Assembly (NCBI GenBank): GCA_021778035.1
Contig: JAJYCY010000008.1
Coordinates: 612 to 64,611 of the forward strand
DNA from: Pseudomonadota bacterium
GTDB lineage: Bacteria; Pseudomonadota; Gammaproteobacteria; Acidiferrobacterales; UBA6901
Direction: 5' to 3'
DNA: 64,000 bases
Positions within the stretch are counted from its first letter, which is position 1. Each line of letters starts with the position of its first letter. The notes under the pieces were generated by a model. It did no database searches. It saw nothing but the letters and a program-made list of their open reading frames with translations, and had not been told where the DNA came from. The translations under genes were made by a program, and so were the position numbers. Positions 51,552 to 56,000 of the stretch are shown one piece after another.

Positions 51552-53825
51552 ATGTCTTCCGCTCCTGACCTGTTTTCATACCGCAAGTACTGGGCCGCAC
51601 GCTTCGGCGCGGCGACAGTGCTTCCGATGTCGCGTGCTGAAATGGACCAGCTCGGGTGGGACTGCTGCGACATTATCATCGTCACCGGGGATGCCTATGT
51701 CGATCATCCCAGTTTCGGCATGGCGATCATCGGGCGCCTGCTCGAGGCGCAGGGTTTCCGGGTCGGGATAATCTCGCAGCCGGACTGGCGCAACCGGGAT
51801 GCCTTTGCGTCCCTCGGCGAGCCCAGGCTGTTTTTCGGAATTACCGCCGGCAACATGGATTCAATGGTGAACCGCTACACGGCGGACCGCCGGCTGCGTT
51901 CCGATGATGCCTATTCACCGGGCGGCCAGGGAGGACGGCGGCCGGATCGTGCCGTCATTGCGTACACCCAGCGGGTACGAGAGGCATTCGCTGGAGTGCC
52001 GGTCATCATCGGGGGCATAGAGGCCAGCCTGCGCCGGGTGGCGCATTACGATTACTGGTCAGACAAGGTGCGCCGGTCGATACTCCTCGACTCGAAGGCG
52101 GACATGCTGGTTTATGGAAACGGTGAACGGCAGATTGTCGAGATCGCGCACCGGATCGCGGCTGGAGAGCGGATCGGCGACATTACCGATGTCCGGGGTA
52201 CCGCATTCCTGCGCAAGGGCACACCTGACGGCTGGACCGAGATCGATTCACGCCGCATTGATGTGCCCGGTACTGCGGATGCCCTGCCGAATCCCTACGC
52301 CGCGGAGGTCCCGCAAGGTCCTTCCTCCCCGAATTGCGCACCGGTAGCGCCCGTTGTGGTGCACCCGCGGCGCGATCCCGTTCCGCCGGACAGACTTCAC
52401 AGCGTGATCAGGTTGCCCGGGTTCGAAGAGGTTGCTGACGACCCGGTCCTCTATGCGCATGCGTCGCGGGTGGTGCATGTCGAATCCAATCCTGGCAATG
52501 CACGGCCACTGGTGCAGCGTCATGGAGACCGCGATCTGTGGCTCAATCCGCCAGCGCTGCCGCTTTCGACGCGCGAAATGGATCGTGTGTACGAACTTCC
52601 GTATGTGCGGCGGCCCCACCCGGACTACGTGGATCAGCGGATTCCGGCCTACGAGATGATCCGTTTCTCCATCACCATACAGCGCGGCTGTTTCGGCGGG
52701 TGCACCTTCTGCTCGATCACCGAGCATGAAGGCCGGGTGATCCAGAGCCGCTCGGAGGCATCGGTGATCCGCGAGATCGAAACAGTGCGTGACGTGGTAC
52801 CGGGATTCACCGGCATCATCTCCGATCTCGGAGGCCCGACTGCCAACATGTACCGCCTGCATTGCCGCAGCCATGAAATAGAATCCGCGTGCCGCAGACC
52901 GTCGTGCGTATACCCCGCGATCTGCAGCAATCTGGAAACGGATCATTCGGCGCTTATCCGTCTCTACCGGCGGGCGCGCGCCGTCGCCGGAGTCAAGAAG
53001 GTTCTGATCGCATCGGGTGTGCGTTACGACCTGGCGATAGAGTCTCCGGAATATGTAAAGGAACTGGTGAGCCATCATGTAGGGGGTTATCTGAAGATTG
53101 CCCCAGAGCATCTGTGCGAAGGACCGCTCAGCAAGATGATGAAGCCGGGCATGGGATCCTATGACCGGTTCAAGGAACTGTTCGACCGGTTTTCGAAAGA
53201 AGCGGGGAAGGAACAGTACCTCATTCCCTATTTCATTGCGGCTCATCCCGGGACGACAGACCAGGACATGCTGGAGCTTGCGCTCTGGCTCAAGCGCAAT
53301 GGCTTCCGCGCAGACCAGGTGCAGGCCTTTCTCCCGTCGCCGATGGCCACCGCCACGGCCATGTATCATTCGGGCAGGAACCCGCTGCGCAAGGTGACGC
53401 GCACGAGCGAGACGGTGGTGGTACCGAAAGGACTGAGGGCACGCCGCCTGCACAAGGCGTTTCTGCGCTACCATGATCCGGCAAACTGGCCGCTGCTGCG
53501 CGAGGCATTGCGGCGCATGCAGCGTACCGACCTCATCGGCAGCGGCAAGCACCAGCTGGTTCCTGCGTTCCAGCCGCCGGCTGCCGTGCCGGAAACCGCG
53601 GTATCGAGGCAGCACAACCGGACGCCTCGCCGTTCGGGTCCGGACGCCAGAGGACTCGAAAACCGGCCGGCTGGGGGCGGGCAGAGGCGCCGCGCCGGCA
53701 AGGGCGGCCAGTTTTCGACCCTGCATGTGCGGACCATGCCGCGGACCGCCCGCGGTCCCGCGGGAAAGCCGCTTACCGGTCTTAATCCGGGCAGCCCCAC
53801 CGGGCGTGGCAAGCGCAGATCCTGA
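51552..53825 (+). CDS. ygiQ: YgiQ-family radical SAM protein (UPF0313)
   Basis: ORF 50985..53825 trimmed to ATG 51552 ([19 protein letters not shown]...[25 protein letters not shown]). Radical-SAM cluster CFGGCTFCS. Long basic C-terminal tail. Confidence 0.9.
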
Positions 53826-53884
53826 CGCATCGGCCCGGAACGGGTTGCGCCGGAATCGGGCGCAGACCCCATAGCTGGCCGACC

Positions 53885-53898
53885 GGTGGGCGGAATCA
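53885..53898 (+). promoter_or_regulatory. 14-nt motif GGTGGGCGGAATCA upstream of the XRE gene (copy 1 of 2)
   Basis: 12/14 identical to GGCGGGCGGATTCA, read on the minus strand at 54921-54908 upstream of the small acidic ORF. The orientation relative to each downstream gene is the same. Confidence 0.3.
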
Positions 53899-53970
53899 CC
53901 TCAGCAAGGGTGCAATCCGTTCCATATGCTGTGTCGACGGACTCCCGGGTTCCCCGATACAGTGTCCTGC

Positions 53971-54240
53971 ATGGAACGAGGGACCAGGAAACTGCTGGCC
54001 AGGCGAGTTCGCCTGCTGCGTGTCGGACGCGGCTGGTCGCAGGAGGCGCTGGCCGCAGCGAGCGGTCTGCACCGCAATTATATCGGCCACGTCGAGCGTT
54101 CGGAACTGAACGTGGGTCTTGATAATCTTGAAAAAATCGCTTTGGCGCTGGGCGTGTCGCTGTGCACGCTACTTGAGCCCGACGAGGCCAGTCTCGGTGA
54201 TTTTATGGCGGATGCGGGGGGAGAGGGGCATGGCCAGTAA
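53971..54240 (+). CDS. XRE-family helix-turn-helix transcriptional regulator
   Basis: Trimmed to ATG 53971. HTH_3-type sequence LLARRVRLLRVGRGWSQEALAAASGLHRNYIGHVERSELNVGLDNLEKIALALGVSLCTLL. Confidence 0.8.
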   Translation: MERGTRKLLARRVRLLRVGRGWSQEALAAASGLHRNYIGHVERSELNVGLDNLEKIALALGVSLCTLLEPDEASLGDFMADAGGEGHGQ

Positions 54241-54252
54241 GGGAGCAGCGTA

Positions 54253-54462
54253 GTGCTGATTCTTTCCCGCCGGCCGGGGGAGGCCGTGCATATCCTGCCC
54301 GGGCCCCGTTTAAGTCCGGACATGCCGGTCAGTGTGCTATTCGGACCCGTGCCGATAGAAATCATCGTGACCCGGGTGCTCGGGAAGGAAGTCCGCCTGG
54401 GAATCAGCGCCCATCCGGAGCTGGTTGTGCTGCGGCGTGAGCTGGTGCGGTCCGGAACGTAA
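54253..54462 (+). CDS. CsrA/RsmA-family RNA-binding protein with ~18-20-aa Pro-rich internal insertion
   Basis: GTG start 12 nt after the XRE stop, with SD AAGGGAG 7 nt upstream. MLILSRRPGEAVHI ... IEIIVTRVLGKEVRLGISAHPELVVLRRELV aligns by eye with E. coli CsrA MLILTRRVGETLMI / [31 protein letters not shown]. Confidence 0.75.
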   Translation: MLILSRRPGEAVHILPGPRLSPDMPVSVLFGPVPIEIIVTRVLGKEVRLGISAHPELVVLRRELVRSGT

Positions 54463-54561
54463 TGTGGCGGCGCATCCGGCTTCTCTGGCCGGGCTGAAGC
54501 CTGACCCTGTCCGCAAGCGTGGCCCGGACACGCCCAGCCTCCTGTCTGGTTGACGTTGATG

Positions 54562-54610
54562 TGCGGCGCCGGGACCAGGTTCCTGGGTGGTTACTCCCGA
54601 CGCCGCATTT
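54562..54610 (+). terminator. Long GC-rich hairpin between the convergent CsrA-like and small-ORF genes (possible intrinsic terminator)
   Basis: TGCGGCGCCGGG (54562-54573) pairs with CCCGACGCCGCA (54596-54607) in 11 of 12 positions. The loop holds an inner palindrome CCAGGTTCCTGG. The hairpin is followed by TTTGTG on the plus strand. Confidence 0.4.
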
Positions 54611-54649
54611 GTGACACCTTGAATTTCCTGTGCCGGTGCGGACCGGCAG

Positions 54650-54877
54650 CTACTGGAGCAGTCTGGTGGTGGCTGGCTGCACCTGTTCCAGGGTCATCTT
54701 GGCGAGCTGTTCCAGCGTAGCCGTATCGGGGATTTCCTGGATATTGGTGAACCAGACATTTTCAACGTGGCAGTCATCATCATCCGATTCCGCGATGACC
54801 AGAGGGCGCCCGATGAAGACGCCCCGTTGTCCGTTTTCCAGATCGATGATGACCATCTGCAGCGGCAACATTTTCAT
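54650..54877 (-). CDS. Small acidic hypothetical protein (75 aa)
   Basis: Strong SD GGAGG 7 nt upstream of ATG 54877. Translation: MKMLPLQMVIIDLENGQRGVFIGRPLVIAESDDDDCHVENVWFTNIQEIPDTATLEQLAKMTLEQVQPATTRLLQ. Codons are visibly more A/T-rich than in neighbouring genes. Confidence 0.6.
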   Translation of the reverse strand: MKMLPLQMVIIDLENGQRGVFIGRPLVIAESDDDDCHVENVWFTNIQEIPDTATLEQLAKMTLEQVQPATTRLLQ

Positions 54878-54907
54878 GGCACGACCTCCGGATCAGGGTG
54901 CACGTTA

Positions 54908-54921
54908 TGAATCCGCCCGCC
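54908..54921 (-). promoter_or_regulatory. 14-nt motif GGCGGGCGGATTCA upstream of the small acidic ORF (copy 2 of 2)
   Basis: Minus-strand reading of tgaatccgcccgcc (54908-54921), 31-44 nt upstream of ATG 54877. It is the partner of the site at 53885-53898. Confidence 0.3.
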
Positions 54922-55091
54922 GCGGACCGCAAGACCAATGTCCGCCGGAAAACGGTGGTCCTGAATTCAATTAAAGCACAATTTGCGCCAGTGGCCAGTG
55001 AACACTGCCAGAGCCTCTGCACACCGACGGCGTTCCACGCTATGCTCGTTCACGTGATTCCGGACAGGACACCGATGCCGAACCAGATCCT

Positions 55092-56000
55092 TTGCGGCTG
55101 TCAGCCCCGCGGACCGGGCTGGTGGCTCACGCCCTGAAAAGCGCCAGCCGGCGCCTGCCTGCTGTCCAGGTGCATGGCGGCGCCGGCTGGCGTTTGCGTG
55201 CAATCCCGAAGGCTCTGCCCGGATGCCGCGATGCCGTGATGGCTGCGTGGGAAATCCTGCGGCATGGAGGCAGTGCGCTCGATGCAGCCGAAGCGGCCGT
55301 GATTGTTCTGGAAGATAATCCAGTGTTCAACGCCGGGACCGGATCGGTGCTCAATGCGGACGGCAGGATAGAGCTCGATGCGTCGATTATGGATGGCACC
55401 GGCATGCGGGCCGGTGCGGTCGCTGCCGTCCAACGCATCCGCAATCCGGTGTCTCTCGCACGCCGCCTGCTGGAGGACGGCCATCCCCTCATGTTGGTCG
55501 GCGATGGTGCAGTCCGCTACGCCAGGGATGTGGGGATTGCGCGCTGCAGCGAAGCATCGCTGGTCGTGCCACGGCAGCTCCGGCGATGGCAGCACGCGGC
55601 AGGGACGGTCGGTGCAGTCGCGGTGGATCTGCAGGGGCGGGTGGCAGCAGCGACCTCGACAGGCGGAAGCTCCGGCAAACTGCCCGGACGCGTCGGCGAT
55701 TCGCCGCTGATTGGCTGCGGCACATACGCGGCGCCGCCGGGCGCCGCATCCTGCACCGGTGCTGGCGAGGCAATCATACGTGTCGTGATGGGCAAGTCCG
55801 CCGTGGACCTGCTGCAGGGTGGGGCCAGTCCGCAGACAGCGGCTGCACGGGTGATTGCGCAGCTAGCGCGCGTCACCGGCGCGCAGGCCGGAGTGATTGT
55901 GGCCGACCGGTACGGCCGGCTCGGGCATGCGCACAATTCGCAAGCCATGCCAGTGTGCCTGGTAAGCGGCGTGCGCGGCCGGTTCGTTACGGATAGCTGA
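55092..56000 (+). CDS. iaaA: Isoaspartyl peptidase / L-asparaginase (Ntn hydrolase)
   Basis: VHGGAGW near the N-terminus. Autoproteolytic nucleophile context GTVGAVAVD. The start is uncertain (TTG 55092 or GTG 55122). Confidence 0.85.

What the first reader, a model, noticed from the sequence alone, without database searches (positions are those of the whole stretch)
53885..54921. ~1-kb islet: XRE regulator co-transcribed with a CsrA-family protein, convergent with a small acidic orphan ORF
Three short genes sit between the housekeeping genes ygiQ and iaaA. The first is an XRE HTH protein (53971-54240). The second is a CsrA-like protein starting 12 nt later with its own SD (54253-54462). The third is a convergent 75-aa acidic ORF with a strong GGAGG SD (54877-54650). 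A long hairpin separates the convergent units. The small ORF uses visibly more A/T-rich codons than the surrounding genes. From memory, ICE-borne CsrA paralogues in Legionella (CsrT/LvrC) sit in regulatory cassettes next to XRE-like regulators, but here there is no integrase, relaxase or transposase. An XRE-CsrA bicistron combines transcriptional and post-transcriptional control in one cassette. It could be a remnant or a novel stand-alone regulatory (or toxin-antitoxin-like) module.
Basis: partly seen in the sequence, partly recalled or inferred. Interest (0 to 1): 0.6.

Follow-up and report, generated by a model that had tools for sequence, protein, structure and literature searches.

The report
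Controller-type repressor paired with RsmN-like regulator
Two of the three small genes form a conserved operon: a DNA-binding switch protein of the restriction-system "controller" type, followed by an RNA-binding translational regulator with the rare RsmN fold; this pairing recurs across bacteria, sometimes fused into one protein, while the third gene is an unrelated, highly conserved core gene.

Summary
All three ORFs exist at the stated coordinates and are under purifying selection. They are not one unit.

**The operon.** 53971-54240 encodes an 89-aa XRE protein. Its closest characterised relatives are restriction-modification controller (C) proteins. 54253-54462 encodes a 69-aa CsrA-family protein. 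It has the rearranged RsmN/RsmF fold, so far characterised only in Pseudomonas (AF2 pLDDT 91; best PDB matches 4KJI/4K59, TM up to 0.85). The RNA-contact residues are conserved.

**The pairing is systematic.** An XRE gene lies within 400 nt, or is fused, in 18 of 24 non-redundant long-form loci, against 2 of 102 canonical csrA loci. About 20 CsrA-HTH fusion proteins were found.

**Upstream of the XRE.** A ~70-nt block is conserved, with CTGTCGAC at -40..-33, no Shine-Dalgarno sequence and a -10-like element next to the ATG. This suggests a leaderless, autoregulated operon like C-R operons.

**orf75 (54650-54877, minus strand).**
- It is not an orphan: more than 120 homologue clusters, 92-96% identity where housekeeping genes show about 77%.
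- Its codon usage is normal.
- It keeps its place next to ygiQ in genomes that lack the pair.

**Verdict.** This is a lineage-specific but vertically inherited two-layer regulatory module, a new variant of known kinds. The mechanism is inferred, not shown. Interest is moderate.

The parts
53905..53970 (+). Conserved non-coding block upstream of the XRE gene: candidate promoter plus operator. GGTGCAATCCGTTCCATATGCTGTGTCGACG - 15 nt variable - CCCGATACAGT - 7 nt - ATG. CTGTGTCG / CGATACAG form an imperfect inverted repeat. GTCGAC lies at -38..-33 and a -10-like GATACA/TACAGT at -15..-8. There is no Shine-Dalgarno sequence.
   Evidence: Alignment of 10 loci, including two with a different upstream gene (A4). 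1-nt indels and loss of the upstream ATG in L001/L015/L005/L021 show the block is not coding. The same CTGTCGAC lies at -40..-33 from the XRE ATG in distant loci L249 and L250. No consensus sigma-70 promoter passes the scan, so any promoter here is weak.
53971..54240 (+). XRE-family HTH protein, 89 aa, of the controller (C-protein) type. It has a clade-specific ~20-aa acidic C-terminal tail with a conserved SLGDFM motif.
   Evidence: Pfam HTH_3 50.4 bits. PADLOC 'Control_protein' PDLC03665 69.1 bits, E 6.8e-20. Best PDB sequence matches are 3VK0, C.AhdI 1Y7Y, C.BclI 2B5A and C.Esp1396I. 77-88% identical in relatives. dN/dS 0.05-0.09. NCBI MDA8420907.1.
53971..53994 (+). Cluster of GGA motifs at the very 5' end of the XRE ORF: AUGGAACGAGGGACCAGGAAAC here, AUGGAAGGAAGGACCAGGAAG in relatives. 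Candidate CsrA-type binding site on the operon's own mRNA.
   Evidence: The statistics are weak. Under the window's codon usage, P(>=3 GGA) = 0.13 for the window peptide and P(4) = 0.03 for the relatives' peptide. This is inference only.
54241..54252 (+). 12-nt spacer carrying the Shine-Dalgarno sequence (AAGGGAG spans 54238-54244) of the CsrA-like gene. In several relatives the XRE stop abuts the start codon (TGAATG).
54253..54462 (+). CsrA-family RNA-binding protein with RsmN/RsmF topology, 69 aa, GTG start. Order of elements: beta1-beta2-short helix-beta3-beta4-beta5, with no long C-terminal helix.
   Evidence: Pfam CsrA 43.2 bits. Full-length sequence match only to RsmF 4K59 / RsmN 4KJI. 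AF2 pLDDT 91.3. Foldseek top four hits are all RsmN/RsmF, TM 0.68-0.85; canonical RsmE aligns over only 33 columns. M1, L2, R6 and R61 are invariant in 59 diverse homologues. dN/dS 0.13-0.20. NCBI MDA8420908.1.
54562..54607 (.). GC-rich hairpin (13-bp stem, 20-nt loop) followed by UUUGUG on the + strand. Probable terminator of the XRE-CsrA-like operon, possibly bidirectional.
   Evidence: The region is not conserved in relatives and its folding is not exceptional.
54650..54877 (-). orf75: an independent, highly conserved small acidic protein of unknown function. It is NOT part of the module and is listed because the finding included it.
   Evidence: >=122 homologue clusters, none with a Pfam domain. 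92-96% identity in relatives whose ygiQ and miaB are about 77% identical. dN/dS 0.015-0.04. Separated from the pair by 0.3-5 kb of variable inserts. Present next to ygiQ in genomes that lack the pair. AF2 pLDDT 62.7 and no fold match.

Best explanation
53971-54462 is a two-gene operon that couples a controller-type (C-protein-like) XRE repressor/activator to an RsmN/RsmF-fold member of the CsrA family.

Proposed working:
1. The XRE dimer binds the conserved operator block that overlaps its own weak promoter (GTCGAC at -38..-33). It thereby sets transcription of both genes.
2. The transcript starts at or within a few nucleotides of the XRE AUG. It is leaderless, as in C-R operons, so XRE is made inefficiently and expression is delayed or switch-like.
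3. The CsrA-like gene is translated from its own Shine-Dalgarno sequence, or by coupling to the XRE stop.
4. Its dimer binds A(N)GGA motifs in target mRNAs and represses, or occasionally activates, their translation.
5. One likely target is the GGA-rich 5' end of its own operon mRNA, which would close a feedback loop.

Shown here:
- the identities and folds of both proteins;
- conservation of the RNA-contact residues;
- the systematic XRE partnership, including fusions;
- the conserved upstream block and the lack of an SD.

Inferred: DNA binding at that block, leaderless transcription, RNA targets and the feedback loop.

The module is vertically inherited in an Acidiferrobacterales-like clade of MAGs. 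It is absent from more distant relatives that keep ygiQ and orf75.
For: Identity of the proteins:
- Family and fold matches.
- RsmN RNA-contact residues Leu4, Leu6, Ser7, Arg9, Arg49 and Arg62 (PMC3791407) correspond to L2, L4, S5, R7, R48 and R61 here (alignment). R6 and R61 are invariant across 59 diverse family members.

The pairing:
- Every close homologue has the XRE immediately upstream, 0-22 nt away.
- Non-redundant count: 18 of 24 long-form loci against 2 of 102 canonical csrA loci have an XRE within 400 nt or fused.
- The partner XRE is orthologous across arrangements, at 53-59% identity.
- Natural CsrA-HTH fusions are confirmed by Pfam. Two lie on contigs of 1.4 Mb and 178 kb.

Regulatory DNA:
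- The upstream block is conserved regardless of the upstream gene.
- CTGTCGAC keeps a fixed distance from the XRE ATG in distant loci.
- Divergent loci carry repeated GACTATA(A)GT-type boxes between the two genes.
- No SD precedes the XRE in any locus.
- C-protein genes are commonly leaderless, their promoters are weak, and many C homologues are not linked to R-M genes (PMC2632904).

Selection: dN/dS is well below 1 for both genes.
Against: - No transcript, DNA-binding or RNA-binding data exist.
- The promoter scan finds no consensus promoter.
- The operator lacks the clean double-palindrome-plus-GTG architecture of C.PvuII-type C-boxes in this clade.
- The GGA enrichment at the XRE 5' end is only marginally unusual (P 0.03-0.13). 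It could simply reflect the peptide MEGRTRK or a downstream non-ATG start.
- More distant long-form members lack an XRE neighbour (L095, L097, L099), so the partnership is not obligatory for the fold.
- The sample of loci is biased towards relatives of the window protein.
Confidence: 0.6

Rival explanations
1. Toxin-antitoxin-like or defence-associated growth-arrest module. The CsrA-like protein would be a translation-blocking 'toxin'. The XRE would both autorepress the operon and neutralise the toxin by direct binding through its conserved C-terminal tail.
For: - The gene order is antitoxin-like HTH first, then the small effector, with abutting or overlapping stop and start codons.
- Both proteins are small.
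- Fusion proteins imply close physical or functional coupling.
- The XRE tail carries a conserved SLGDFM motif.
- In other lineages the pair sits beside a type I R-M HsdR/YgjP (L014), a PDC-S01 candidate defence gene with a NERD protein (L022), and IS fragments (L250).
- Sorokin et al. speculated that C proteins not linked to R-M control other toxic genes.
Against: - The CsrA-like protein has no match in PADLOC, and nothing beyond CsrA in Pfam or NCBIfam.
- No CsrA-family protein is an established toxin (my knowledge), and heterologous RsmN expression did not affect growth in B. subtilis (PMC13443453).
- The pair is fixed at one chromosomal site across a clade.
- It is absent from plasmid and viral collections.
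- The 70-aa partner XREs in other lineages lack the tail.
- No protein-protein evidence exists.
Confidence: 0.15
2. The RsmN-like domain does not act on RNA here. It would serve as a dimerisation or co-regulator domain for the XRE DNA-binding protein, working in trans in the window and in cis in the fusions.
For: - In the CsrA-HTH fusions, an obligate-dimer fold sits N-terminal to an HTH.
- RsmN's inserted helices form an extra surface of unknown function (PMC3791407).
Against: - The residues that contact RNA in RsmN are the most conserved positions of the whole family, including in the fusions.
- Several family members occur without any XRE neighbour.
- The fusion loci also keep a separate divergent XRE.
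Confidence: 0.1
3. One reading: a three-gene accessory islet, the remnant of an ICE or mobile-element regulatory cassette of the Legionella CsrT/LvrC kind.
For: - The pair is absent from more distant relatives, where the ygiQ-orf75 slot holds a small membrane protein.
- The codon adaptation of XRE and CsrA-like is at the 4-6th percentile.
- The region downstream of the pair is an insertion hot spot, with IS elements, a globin gene and sulfur genes.
- Distant family members sit in island-like contexts with Phage_pRha and HTH_17.
Against: - orf75 is a core gene with normal codon usage.
- The pair is syntenic in about ten genomes and under purifying selection.
- No integrase, relaxase or T4SS gene lies nearby.
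- The XRE is not LexA/CI-like, and lvrA/lvrB equivalents are missing.
Confidence: 0.05

Closest known systems
RsmN / RsmF of Pseudomonas aeruginosa (PDB 4KJI, 4K59; Morris et al. 2013, PMC3791407)
   Same: - The topology is the same rearranged CsrA form: a helix inserted between beta2 and beta3 and no long C-terminal helix.
- TM-score is up to 0.85 and rmsd 1.7 A, with 33-35% identity.
- The ANGGA-contact residues are conserved, including the Arg62 equivalent.
   Different: - It is not an orthologue. It comes from an Acidiferrobacterales-like MAG.
- The inserted segment is proline-rich, with only a 4-residue predicted helix.
- The Arg56 equivalent is Pro.
- It is encoded downstream of a dedicated XRE gene. 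In the papers read here, rsmN lies between PA5183 and PA5184, and no XRE partner is mentioned.
Controller (C) proteins of type II restriction-modification systems (C.AhdI, C.BclI, C.Esp1396I, C.PvuII) and their C-R operons (PMC2632904)
   Same: - It is a small XRE HTH whose best family and structure matches are C proteins.
- It is the first gene of a bicistron, with the regulated gene immediately downstream or overlapping.
- There is no SD, and promoter-like elements lie so close to the ATG that the mRNA would be leaderless.
- A conserved operator block overlaps a weak promoter.
   Different: - The cargo is an RNA-binding regulator, not a nuclease.
- No methyltransferase or R-M gene is in the window.
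- The operator is not a textbook 35-bp double C-box in this clade.
- The protein carries an extra acidic tail.
Legionella lvrRABC / CsrT regulatory cassettes of ICEs (PMC3864950)
   Same: A CsrA paralogue is encoded in one regulatory operon with an HTH repressor.
   Different: - LvrR is LexA/CI-like, and the cassette has four genes and controls a T4SS or ICE excision.
- Here there are two genes, a C-type XRE and no mobile element.
- Methylophaga locus L024 (CI-like 233-aa repressor, canonical csrA and an RsmN-like gene) is closer to that layout than the window is.
Type II toxin-antitoxin operons with XRE antitoxins (HipBA, HigBA type)
   Same: The gene order, the small size, the tight coupling and the autoregulatory HTH first gene.
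   Different: The second gene belongs to no known toxin family. The distribution is vertical rather than patchy within the clade.

Membership tests
CsrA/RsmA family (Pfam PF02599) | Profile match above the curated threshold | tested here: met
   43.2 bits against a gathering score of 27. The NCBIfam csrA equivalog models score below their cut-offs (32 against 73), as expected for a divergent member.
CsrA/RsmA family (Pfam PF02599) | Conserved RNA-binding residues: beta1 LILTRR motif and the Arg44 equivalent | tested here: met
   MLILSRR at positions 1-7 and R61 in VLRRE. M1, L2, R6 and R61 are invariant in 59 diverse homologues.
CsrA/RsmA family (Pfam PF02599) | Homodimer that binds GGA motifs in RNA | not testable with these tools
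   Only a single-chain prediction was available, and there is no binding assay.
RsmN/RsmF structural subfamily | Helix inserted between beta2 and beta3, with the C-terminal helix of CsrA lost | tested here: met
   The AF2 model (pLDDT 91.3) gives E2-6, E12-16, H26-29, E36-43, E46-52, E57-61 and only a short terminal helix at 62-68.
RsmN/RsmF structural subfamily | Closest solved structures are RsmN/RsmF rather than canonical CsrA/RsmE | tested here: met
   Foldseek ranks 1-4 are 4KJI, 4K59 and 4KRW (TM 0.68-0.85). 2JPP aligns over only 33 columns, with E = 4.3. phmmer agrees.
RsmN/RsmF structural subfamily | Non-domain-swapped dimer; each monomer contacts one RNA hairpin through Arg9, Arg49, Arg56 and Arg62 | tested here: inconclusive
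   The equivalents of Arg9, Arg49 and Arg62 are present (R7, R48, R61). The Arg56 equivalent is P55 (PMC3791407). The dimer mode could not be modelled.
RsmN/RsmF structural subfamily | Orthology with Pseudomonas rsmN (same locus, Gac/Rsm sRNA partners) | not tested
   Identity is 33-35% and the taxon is different. No Rsm-type sRNA was found in 53000-56000 (Rfam). The rest of the genome is not available.
R-M controller (C) protein family | Small XRE HTH protein most similar to known C proteins | tested here: met
   PADLOC Control_protein scores 69.1 bits over 65 of 77 profile positions. C.AhdI, C.BclI and C.Esp1396I are among the top PDB matches.
R-M controller (C) protein family | Gene lies directly upstream of, and is co-oriented or overlapping with, the gene it controls | tested here: met
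   The gap is 12 nt here and 0-16 nt in relatives.
R-M controller (C) protein family | Leaderless mRNA, with the operator ending about 17-18 nt before the start codon | tested here: inconclusive
   There is no SD. A -10-like element lies at -15..-8, and the conserved block ends close to the ATG. The TSS is not mapped.
R-M controller (C) protein family | C-box operator: two palindromic boxes around a central GTG, flanked by complementary trinucleotides | tested here: inconclusive
   The window clade has TGTGTCGACG plus the imperfect inverted repeat CTGTGTCG/CGATACAG. Distant loci show clear repeated boxes: L101 has ACTATAGT three times, and L250 has GACTATAAGT(C/G)GACAGAC repeats.
R-M controller (C) protein family | Association with restriction endonuclease and methyltransferase genes | tested here: not met
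   No R-M gene lies within 51-57.5 kb. Only L014 lies next to a type I HsdR. The XRE therefore resembles a C protein in how it probably works, but it is not an R-M controller.
Type II toxin-antitoxin system | Second gene belongs to a known toxin family or is demonstrably toxic | tested here: not met
   There are no PADLOC, Pfam or NCBIfam toxin matches. Toxicity is untested.
Legionella lvrRABC / CsrT ICE cassette | LexA/CI-type LvrR, lvrA and lvrB genes, adjacent T4SS or integrase | tested here: not met
   The XRE is 89 aa with no peptidase domain. The module has two genes only, and no mobility genes are nearby.

The most novel reading that the evidence does not exclude
The XRE-1 / RsmN-fold pair, together with its fused CsrA-HTH form, could be an undescribed, widespread class of two-layer genetic switch. 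A leaderless, C-protein-type controller would gate a translational repressor. That repressor would in turn bind the GGA-rich 5' end of the controller's own mRNA. In mobile contexts, the same module might act as a defence-island or toxin-antitoxin-like growth-arrest device. It would also mean that the RsmN fold, thought to be a Pseudomonas peculiarity, is an ancient and broadly distributed branch of the CsrA family with its own dedicated transcription factor.
Probability: 0.2. Interest if true: 0.75.

Novelty: new variant of a known kind. Interest (0 to 1): 0.5.

Why it matters
CsrA-family proteins are usually studied as global regulators antagonised by sRNAs or by FliW/CesT.

**The fold.** The papers I could read treat the RsmN/RsmF fold as special to a few Pseudomonas species. 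Here the fold appears in about 2,700 protein clusters (90% identity) from uncultured Proteobacteria and others.

**The partner.** Its nearest subfamily is almost always encoded with, or fused to, one particular C-protein-like XRE regulator. This gives two testable ideas:
- A CsrA-type regulator can be placed under a controller-type, delay or bistable switch. That would answer Sorokin et al.'s open question of what C proteins outside R-M systems control.
- DNA-binding and RNA-binding regulation are coupled physically in the fusion proteins.

**The separate lead.** orf75 is a very strongly conserved small protein with no family assignment.

None of this is shown experimentally, and all source organisms are MAGs, which limits immediate impact.

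Tried and rejected
- **Rfam scan** of 53000-56000 at E <= 1 found nothing, so no Rsm/Csr-type sRNA or other known RNA is present.
- **Intergenic region 54463-54649 as a structured or decoy RNA.** Rejected: fold z = -0.36 and no conservation.
- **Consensus sigma-70 promoter scan** gave no hit. The two 'terminators' it called lie inside coding sequence and were ignored.
- **Inverted repeat CGTTCCAT/ATGGAACG (I11)** spanning the XRE start is not conserved in relatives and was dropped.
- **Longer XRE ORF from ATG 53926 (104 aa).** Some gene callers use it. Rejected because that ATG is missing in L005 and L021 and out of frame in L001 and L015.
- **GGA enrichment test.** My first impression of strong significance did not hold. 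CGG-A junctions also create GGA, giving P = 0.03-0.13.
- **Composition as evidence of foreign origin.** It is marginal for XRE and CsrA-like, and absent for orf75.
- **Plasmid collection** (tblastn) gave no match. **IMG/VR** returned only canonical short-form CsrA.
- **orf75 function.** No result from Pfam, NCBIfam, PHROGs, PADLOC, PDB sequence search, the AF2 model (pLDDT 62.7) or Foldseek. Weak Pectate_lyase hits (best E 0.003) were judged spurious.
- **Alignment A2** was too diverse for locus scans, so A3 was used instead.
- **P0170 'fusion'** looks frameshifted after about residue 125, so it counts only weakly.
Full report
**Observation**

- 53971-54240 encodes an 89-aa XRE helix-turn-helix protein (Pfam HTH_3, 50.4 bits).
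- 54253-54462 has a GTG start 12 nt after the XRE stop and is preceded by AAGGGAG. It encodes a 69-aa protein that passes the Pfam CsrA threshold (43.2 against 27 bits).
- 54877-54650 encodes a 75-aa acidic protein behind a GGAGG.
- The flanking genes are a YgiQ-type radical-SAM gene, an Asparaginase_2 (iaaA-like) gene and miaB.
- Exactly these three proteins are already in NCBI as consecutive entries of a Pseudomonadota MAG. They are annotated 'helix-turn-helix transcriptional regulator', 'carbon storage regulator' and 'hypothetical protein'.

**The CsrA-like protein has the RsmN/RsmF fold**

- Canonical CsrA aligns only to residues 1-14 and 35-65. About 17 residues are inserted after beta2, and the long C-terminal helix is missing.
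- The only full-length matches among solved structures are P. aeruginosa RsmF (4K59) and RsmN (4KJI).
- An AlphaFold2 model built on 96 homologues has pLDDT 91.3. Its order of elements is beta1, beta2, short helix, beta3, beta4, beta5.
- The top four Foldseek PDB hits are all RsmN/RsmF, with TM up to 0.85 and rmsd 1.7 A. Canonical RsmE aligns over 33 columns only.
- Morris et al. showed which RsmN residues contact the ANGGA motif: Leu4, Leu6, Ser7, Arg9, Arg49 and Arg62 (PMC3791407). They correspond to L2, L4, S5, R7, R48 and R61 here. Only the Arg56 equivalent is lost.
- Across 59 diverse homologues, M1, L2, R6 and R61 are invariant.

RNA binding of the CsrA/RsmN kind is therefore the most economical prediction. 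It is an inference.

**How common is this form?**

- A word-indexed search with the single protein found only 7 clusters.
- An exhaustive profile search of 1.84 billion representatives found 722 at E <= 1e-3, most with the same 65-69-aa architecture.
- A profile of diverse members then recovered 2,733 clusters (90% identity) at E <= 1e-6.
- The papers I could read describe RsmN as restricted to a few Pseudomonas lineages, or as uniquely shaped among the CsrAs tested.
- My literature searches found no description of an XRE partner or of CsrA-HTH fusions. Absence from this library is not proof of novelty.

**The XRE partnership**

- In every locus that encodes a close homologue, an XRE gene lies immediately upstream on the same strand, 0-22 nt away.
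- In more distant members the same XRE subfamily (53-59% identical to the window's) is divergently transcribed from a shared 83-132-nt intergenic region. This is seen in L022, L101, L103, L104, L249 and L250. In L105 and L014 it follows the CsrA-like gene.
- About 20 of the best 150 profile hits are single proteins of 141-182 aa, with the RsmN-like domain at the N-terminus and an XRE HTH at the C-terminus. Pfam confirms both domains.
- Two fusions lie on contigs of 1.4 Mb and 178 kb, each next to a separate divergent XRE.
- Counting one locus per 90% cluster, 18 of 24 long-form loci have an XRE within 400 nt or fused. A 19th, L023, is cut by the contig end. The figure for canonical short-form csrA loci fetched by the same scans is 2 of 102.
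- The sample is biased towards relatives of the window protein, and some distant long-form members have no XRE neighbour. The partnership therefore defines a subfamily, not the whole fold.

**What kind of XRE?**

- Its best family match in any library is the PADLOC 'control protein' model (69 bits).
- Among solved structures, C.AhdI, C.BclI and C.Esp1396I follow directly after 3VK0.
- A block of about 70 nt upstream of the ATG is conserved in ten loci. These include L005 and L021, where the upstream gene is different.
- That block is regulatory DNA, not coding. The in-frame ATG at 53926 used by some gene callers is lost in two loci and out of frame in two others.
- The block contains an invariant TGTGTCGACG and an imperfect inverted repeat CTGTGTCG/CGATACAG.
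- The motif CTGTCGAC sits at -40..-33 from the XRE start in the window and at the same distance in the distant loci L249 and L250. Variants occur in L022 and L104.
- A -10-like GATACA/TACAGT (TATAAG in L250, TATAAC in L021) lies at about -15..-6. No locus has a Shine-Dalgarno sequence before the XRE.
- Divergent loci carry obvious repeated boxes between the two genes, for example three copies of ACTATAGT in L101.
- This is the layout Sorokin et al. describe for controller proteins: weak promoters, operators close to the start codon, leaderless mRNAs. They also report many C homologues not linked to R-M genes, whose cargo is unknown (PMC2632904).
- The strict promoter scan finds nothing. This fits a weak, factor-dependent promoter but proves nothing.

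**A possible feedback loop**

- The XRE ORF begins AUGGAAGGAAGGACCAGGAAG in most relatives and AUGGAACGAGGGACCAGGAAAC in the window. That is three to four GGA motifs at the extreme 5' end of a probably leaderless mRNA.
- This would be an obvious binding site for a CsrA-type dimer.
- A codon-usage simulation shows the enrichment is modest, with P = 0.03 for the relatives and 0.13 for the window.
- I keep it as a hypothesis only.

**The third gene**

orf75 is not an orphan and not part of the module.
- It has at least 122 homologue clusters at 62-92% identity. All are unannotated, and none has a Pfam domain.
- It is 92-96% identical in relatives whose ygiQ, miaB, XRE and CsrA-like proteins are 76-78, 77, 77-88 and 67-74% identical. 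Its dN/dS is 0.015-0.04.
- Its GC3 and codon adaptation are typical. The local GC dip reflects amino-acid composition.
- It is separated from the pair by a globin gene (L005), by about 2.5 kb (L017, L018) or by about 5 kb with DsrE/TusA genes (L008).
- In more distant genomes it still lies next to ygiQ, while the slot in between holds a small membrane protein instead of the pair.
- Its structure model is poor (pLDDT 62.7) and matches nothing.

**Accessory or core?**

- Within the clade, which consists of MAGs labelled Proteobacteria, Gammaproteobacteria or Acidiferrobacterales, the pair is syntenic.
- It is under purifying selection, with dN/dS of 0.05-0.09 for XRE and 0.13-0.20 for CsrA-like. 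dS is saturated.
- It is only marginally atypical in codon usage, at the 4-6th percentile.
- It is absent from deeper relatives, so it was acquired once and then inherited.
- In other lineages the pair lies beside a type I HsdR/YgjP (L014), a PDC-S01 candidate defence gene and a NERD protein (L022), or IS fragments (L250). These are three anecdotes, enough to keep a conflict-system reading alive but no more.
- It was not found on plasmids or, in long form, in IMG/VR.

**Mechanism and rivals**

- *Best explanation (0.6).* A C-protein-style, probably leaderless, autoregulated operon whose cargo is an RsmN-fold translational regulator acting on GGA-containing mRNAs, possibly including its own.
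- *Toxin-antitoxin-like rival (0.15).* It rests on gene order, coupling, fusions and neighbours in other lineages. It lacks any toxin homology or evidence of toxicity.
- *'Protein partner, not RNA binder' rival (0.1).* It is disfavoured because the RNA-contact residues are the best conserved positions.
- *ICE-remnant reading (0.05).* It fails on synteny, selection and content.

**Verdict**

The module is a new variant of known kinds: an RsmN-type CsrA under a controller-type XRE. Interest is moderate (0.5). The generality of the pairing and the natural fusions are the surprising part. Everything about function remains to be tested, and the organisms are uncultured.

Noticed in passing
window 54650-54877 (-); L001 6534-6761, L005 7229-7456, L091 5001-5225, L094 5001-5222: orf75 is a 73-75-aa acidic protein family with no Pfam or PDB match. 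It is more conserved than the neighbouring housekeeping genes (92-96% against about 77% identity; dN/dS 0.015-0.04). It is found in Acidiferrobacterales, Ca. Muproteobacteria and other gammaproteobacterial MAGs, usually close to ygiQ and miaB.
   Followed up: partly
proteins P0131, P0140, P0143, P0147-P0149, P0156, P0168, P0176, P0177, P0189, P0192, P0196, P0198, P0201, P0252, P0255; loci L249 5001-5489, L250 5001-5549: These are natural fusion proteins with an N-terminal RsmN-like CsrA domain and a C-terminal XRE HTH (141-182 aa). In both loci examined, a separate 70-aa XRE gene is divergently transcribed next to the fusion.
   Followed up: partly
proteins P0229 (202 aa) and P0266 (154 aa): Two RsmN-like domains occur in tandem within one polypeptide. 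This may be a single-chain version of the dimer.
   Followed up: no
L024 4545-6225 (Methylophaga sp. 42_25_T18): A canonical 59-aa csrA (minus strand), a 233-aa CI-like HTH protein and an RsmN-like 74-aa gene lie within 1.7 kb. Of all the loci seen, this layout is the nearest to the Legionella lvr cassette.
   Followed up: no
L101 2919-3000; L250 4877-5000; L249 4896-5000: The intergenic regions between divergent XRE and CsrA-like genes carry conspicuous direct or palindromic repeats. L101 has ATACTATAGT three times. L250 has GACTATAAGT(C/G)GACAGAC-type repeats. These are likely operators, with a GTCGAC core shared with the window.
   Followed up: partly
L091 5648-6073 (-), L094 5775-6044 (-): In more distant genomes that lack the XRE-CsrA pair, the slot between ygiQ and orf75 encodes a small (87-141 aa by ORF) protein with one hydrophobic transmembrane-like segment followed by WWLRRK.
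   Followed up: no
downstream of the CsrA-like gene: L005 6573-6968, L008 6233-11478, L012 783-1960, L013 604-1869, L017/L018 6211-8700, L001 7239-8759: The stretch between the pair and orf75/iaaA is an insertion hot spot. It holds a bacterial globin in L005. L008 has GerE, DsrE-like and TusA genes. L012 and L013 have IS transposases (DDE, rve). In L001 an MCP fragment and a GGDEF gene replace iaaA.
   Followed up: no
window 53560-53825 (+), 3' end of the ygiQ-like ORF: The YgiQ homologue ends in an Arg/Gly/Pro-rich, low-complexity tail of about 90 aa (local GC 0.70-0.72). Its last residues, [12 protein letters not shown], are also present in the homologues of L091 and L094.
   Followed up: no
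L014 5-2116 and 2271-3074; L022 228-2067: In two other lineages the XRE-CsrA-like pair lies next to defence-type genes. L014 has a type I restriction HsdR C-terminal part plus a YgjP-like hydrolase. L022 has a PDC-S01 ATPase (PADLOC E 1e-169) plus a NERD-domain protein.
   Followed up: partly
L095 1-4225, L097 913-4204: Distant RsmN-fold members without an XRE partner sit at the end of island-like gene sets (HTH_17/AlpA-like, Phage_pRha, SNase) next to leuS/lptE.
   Followed up: no
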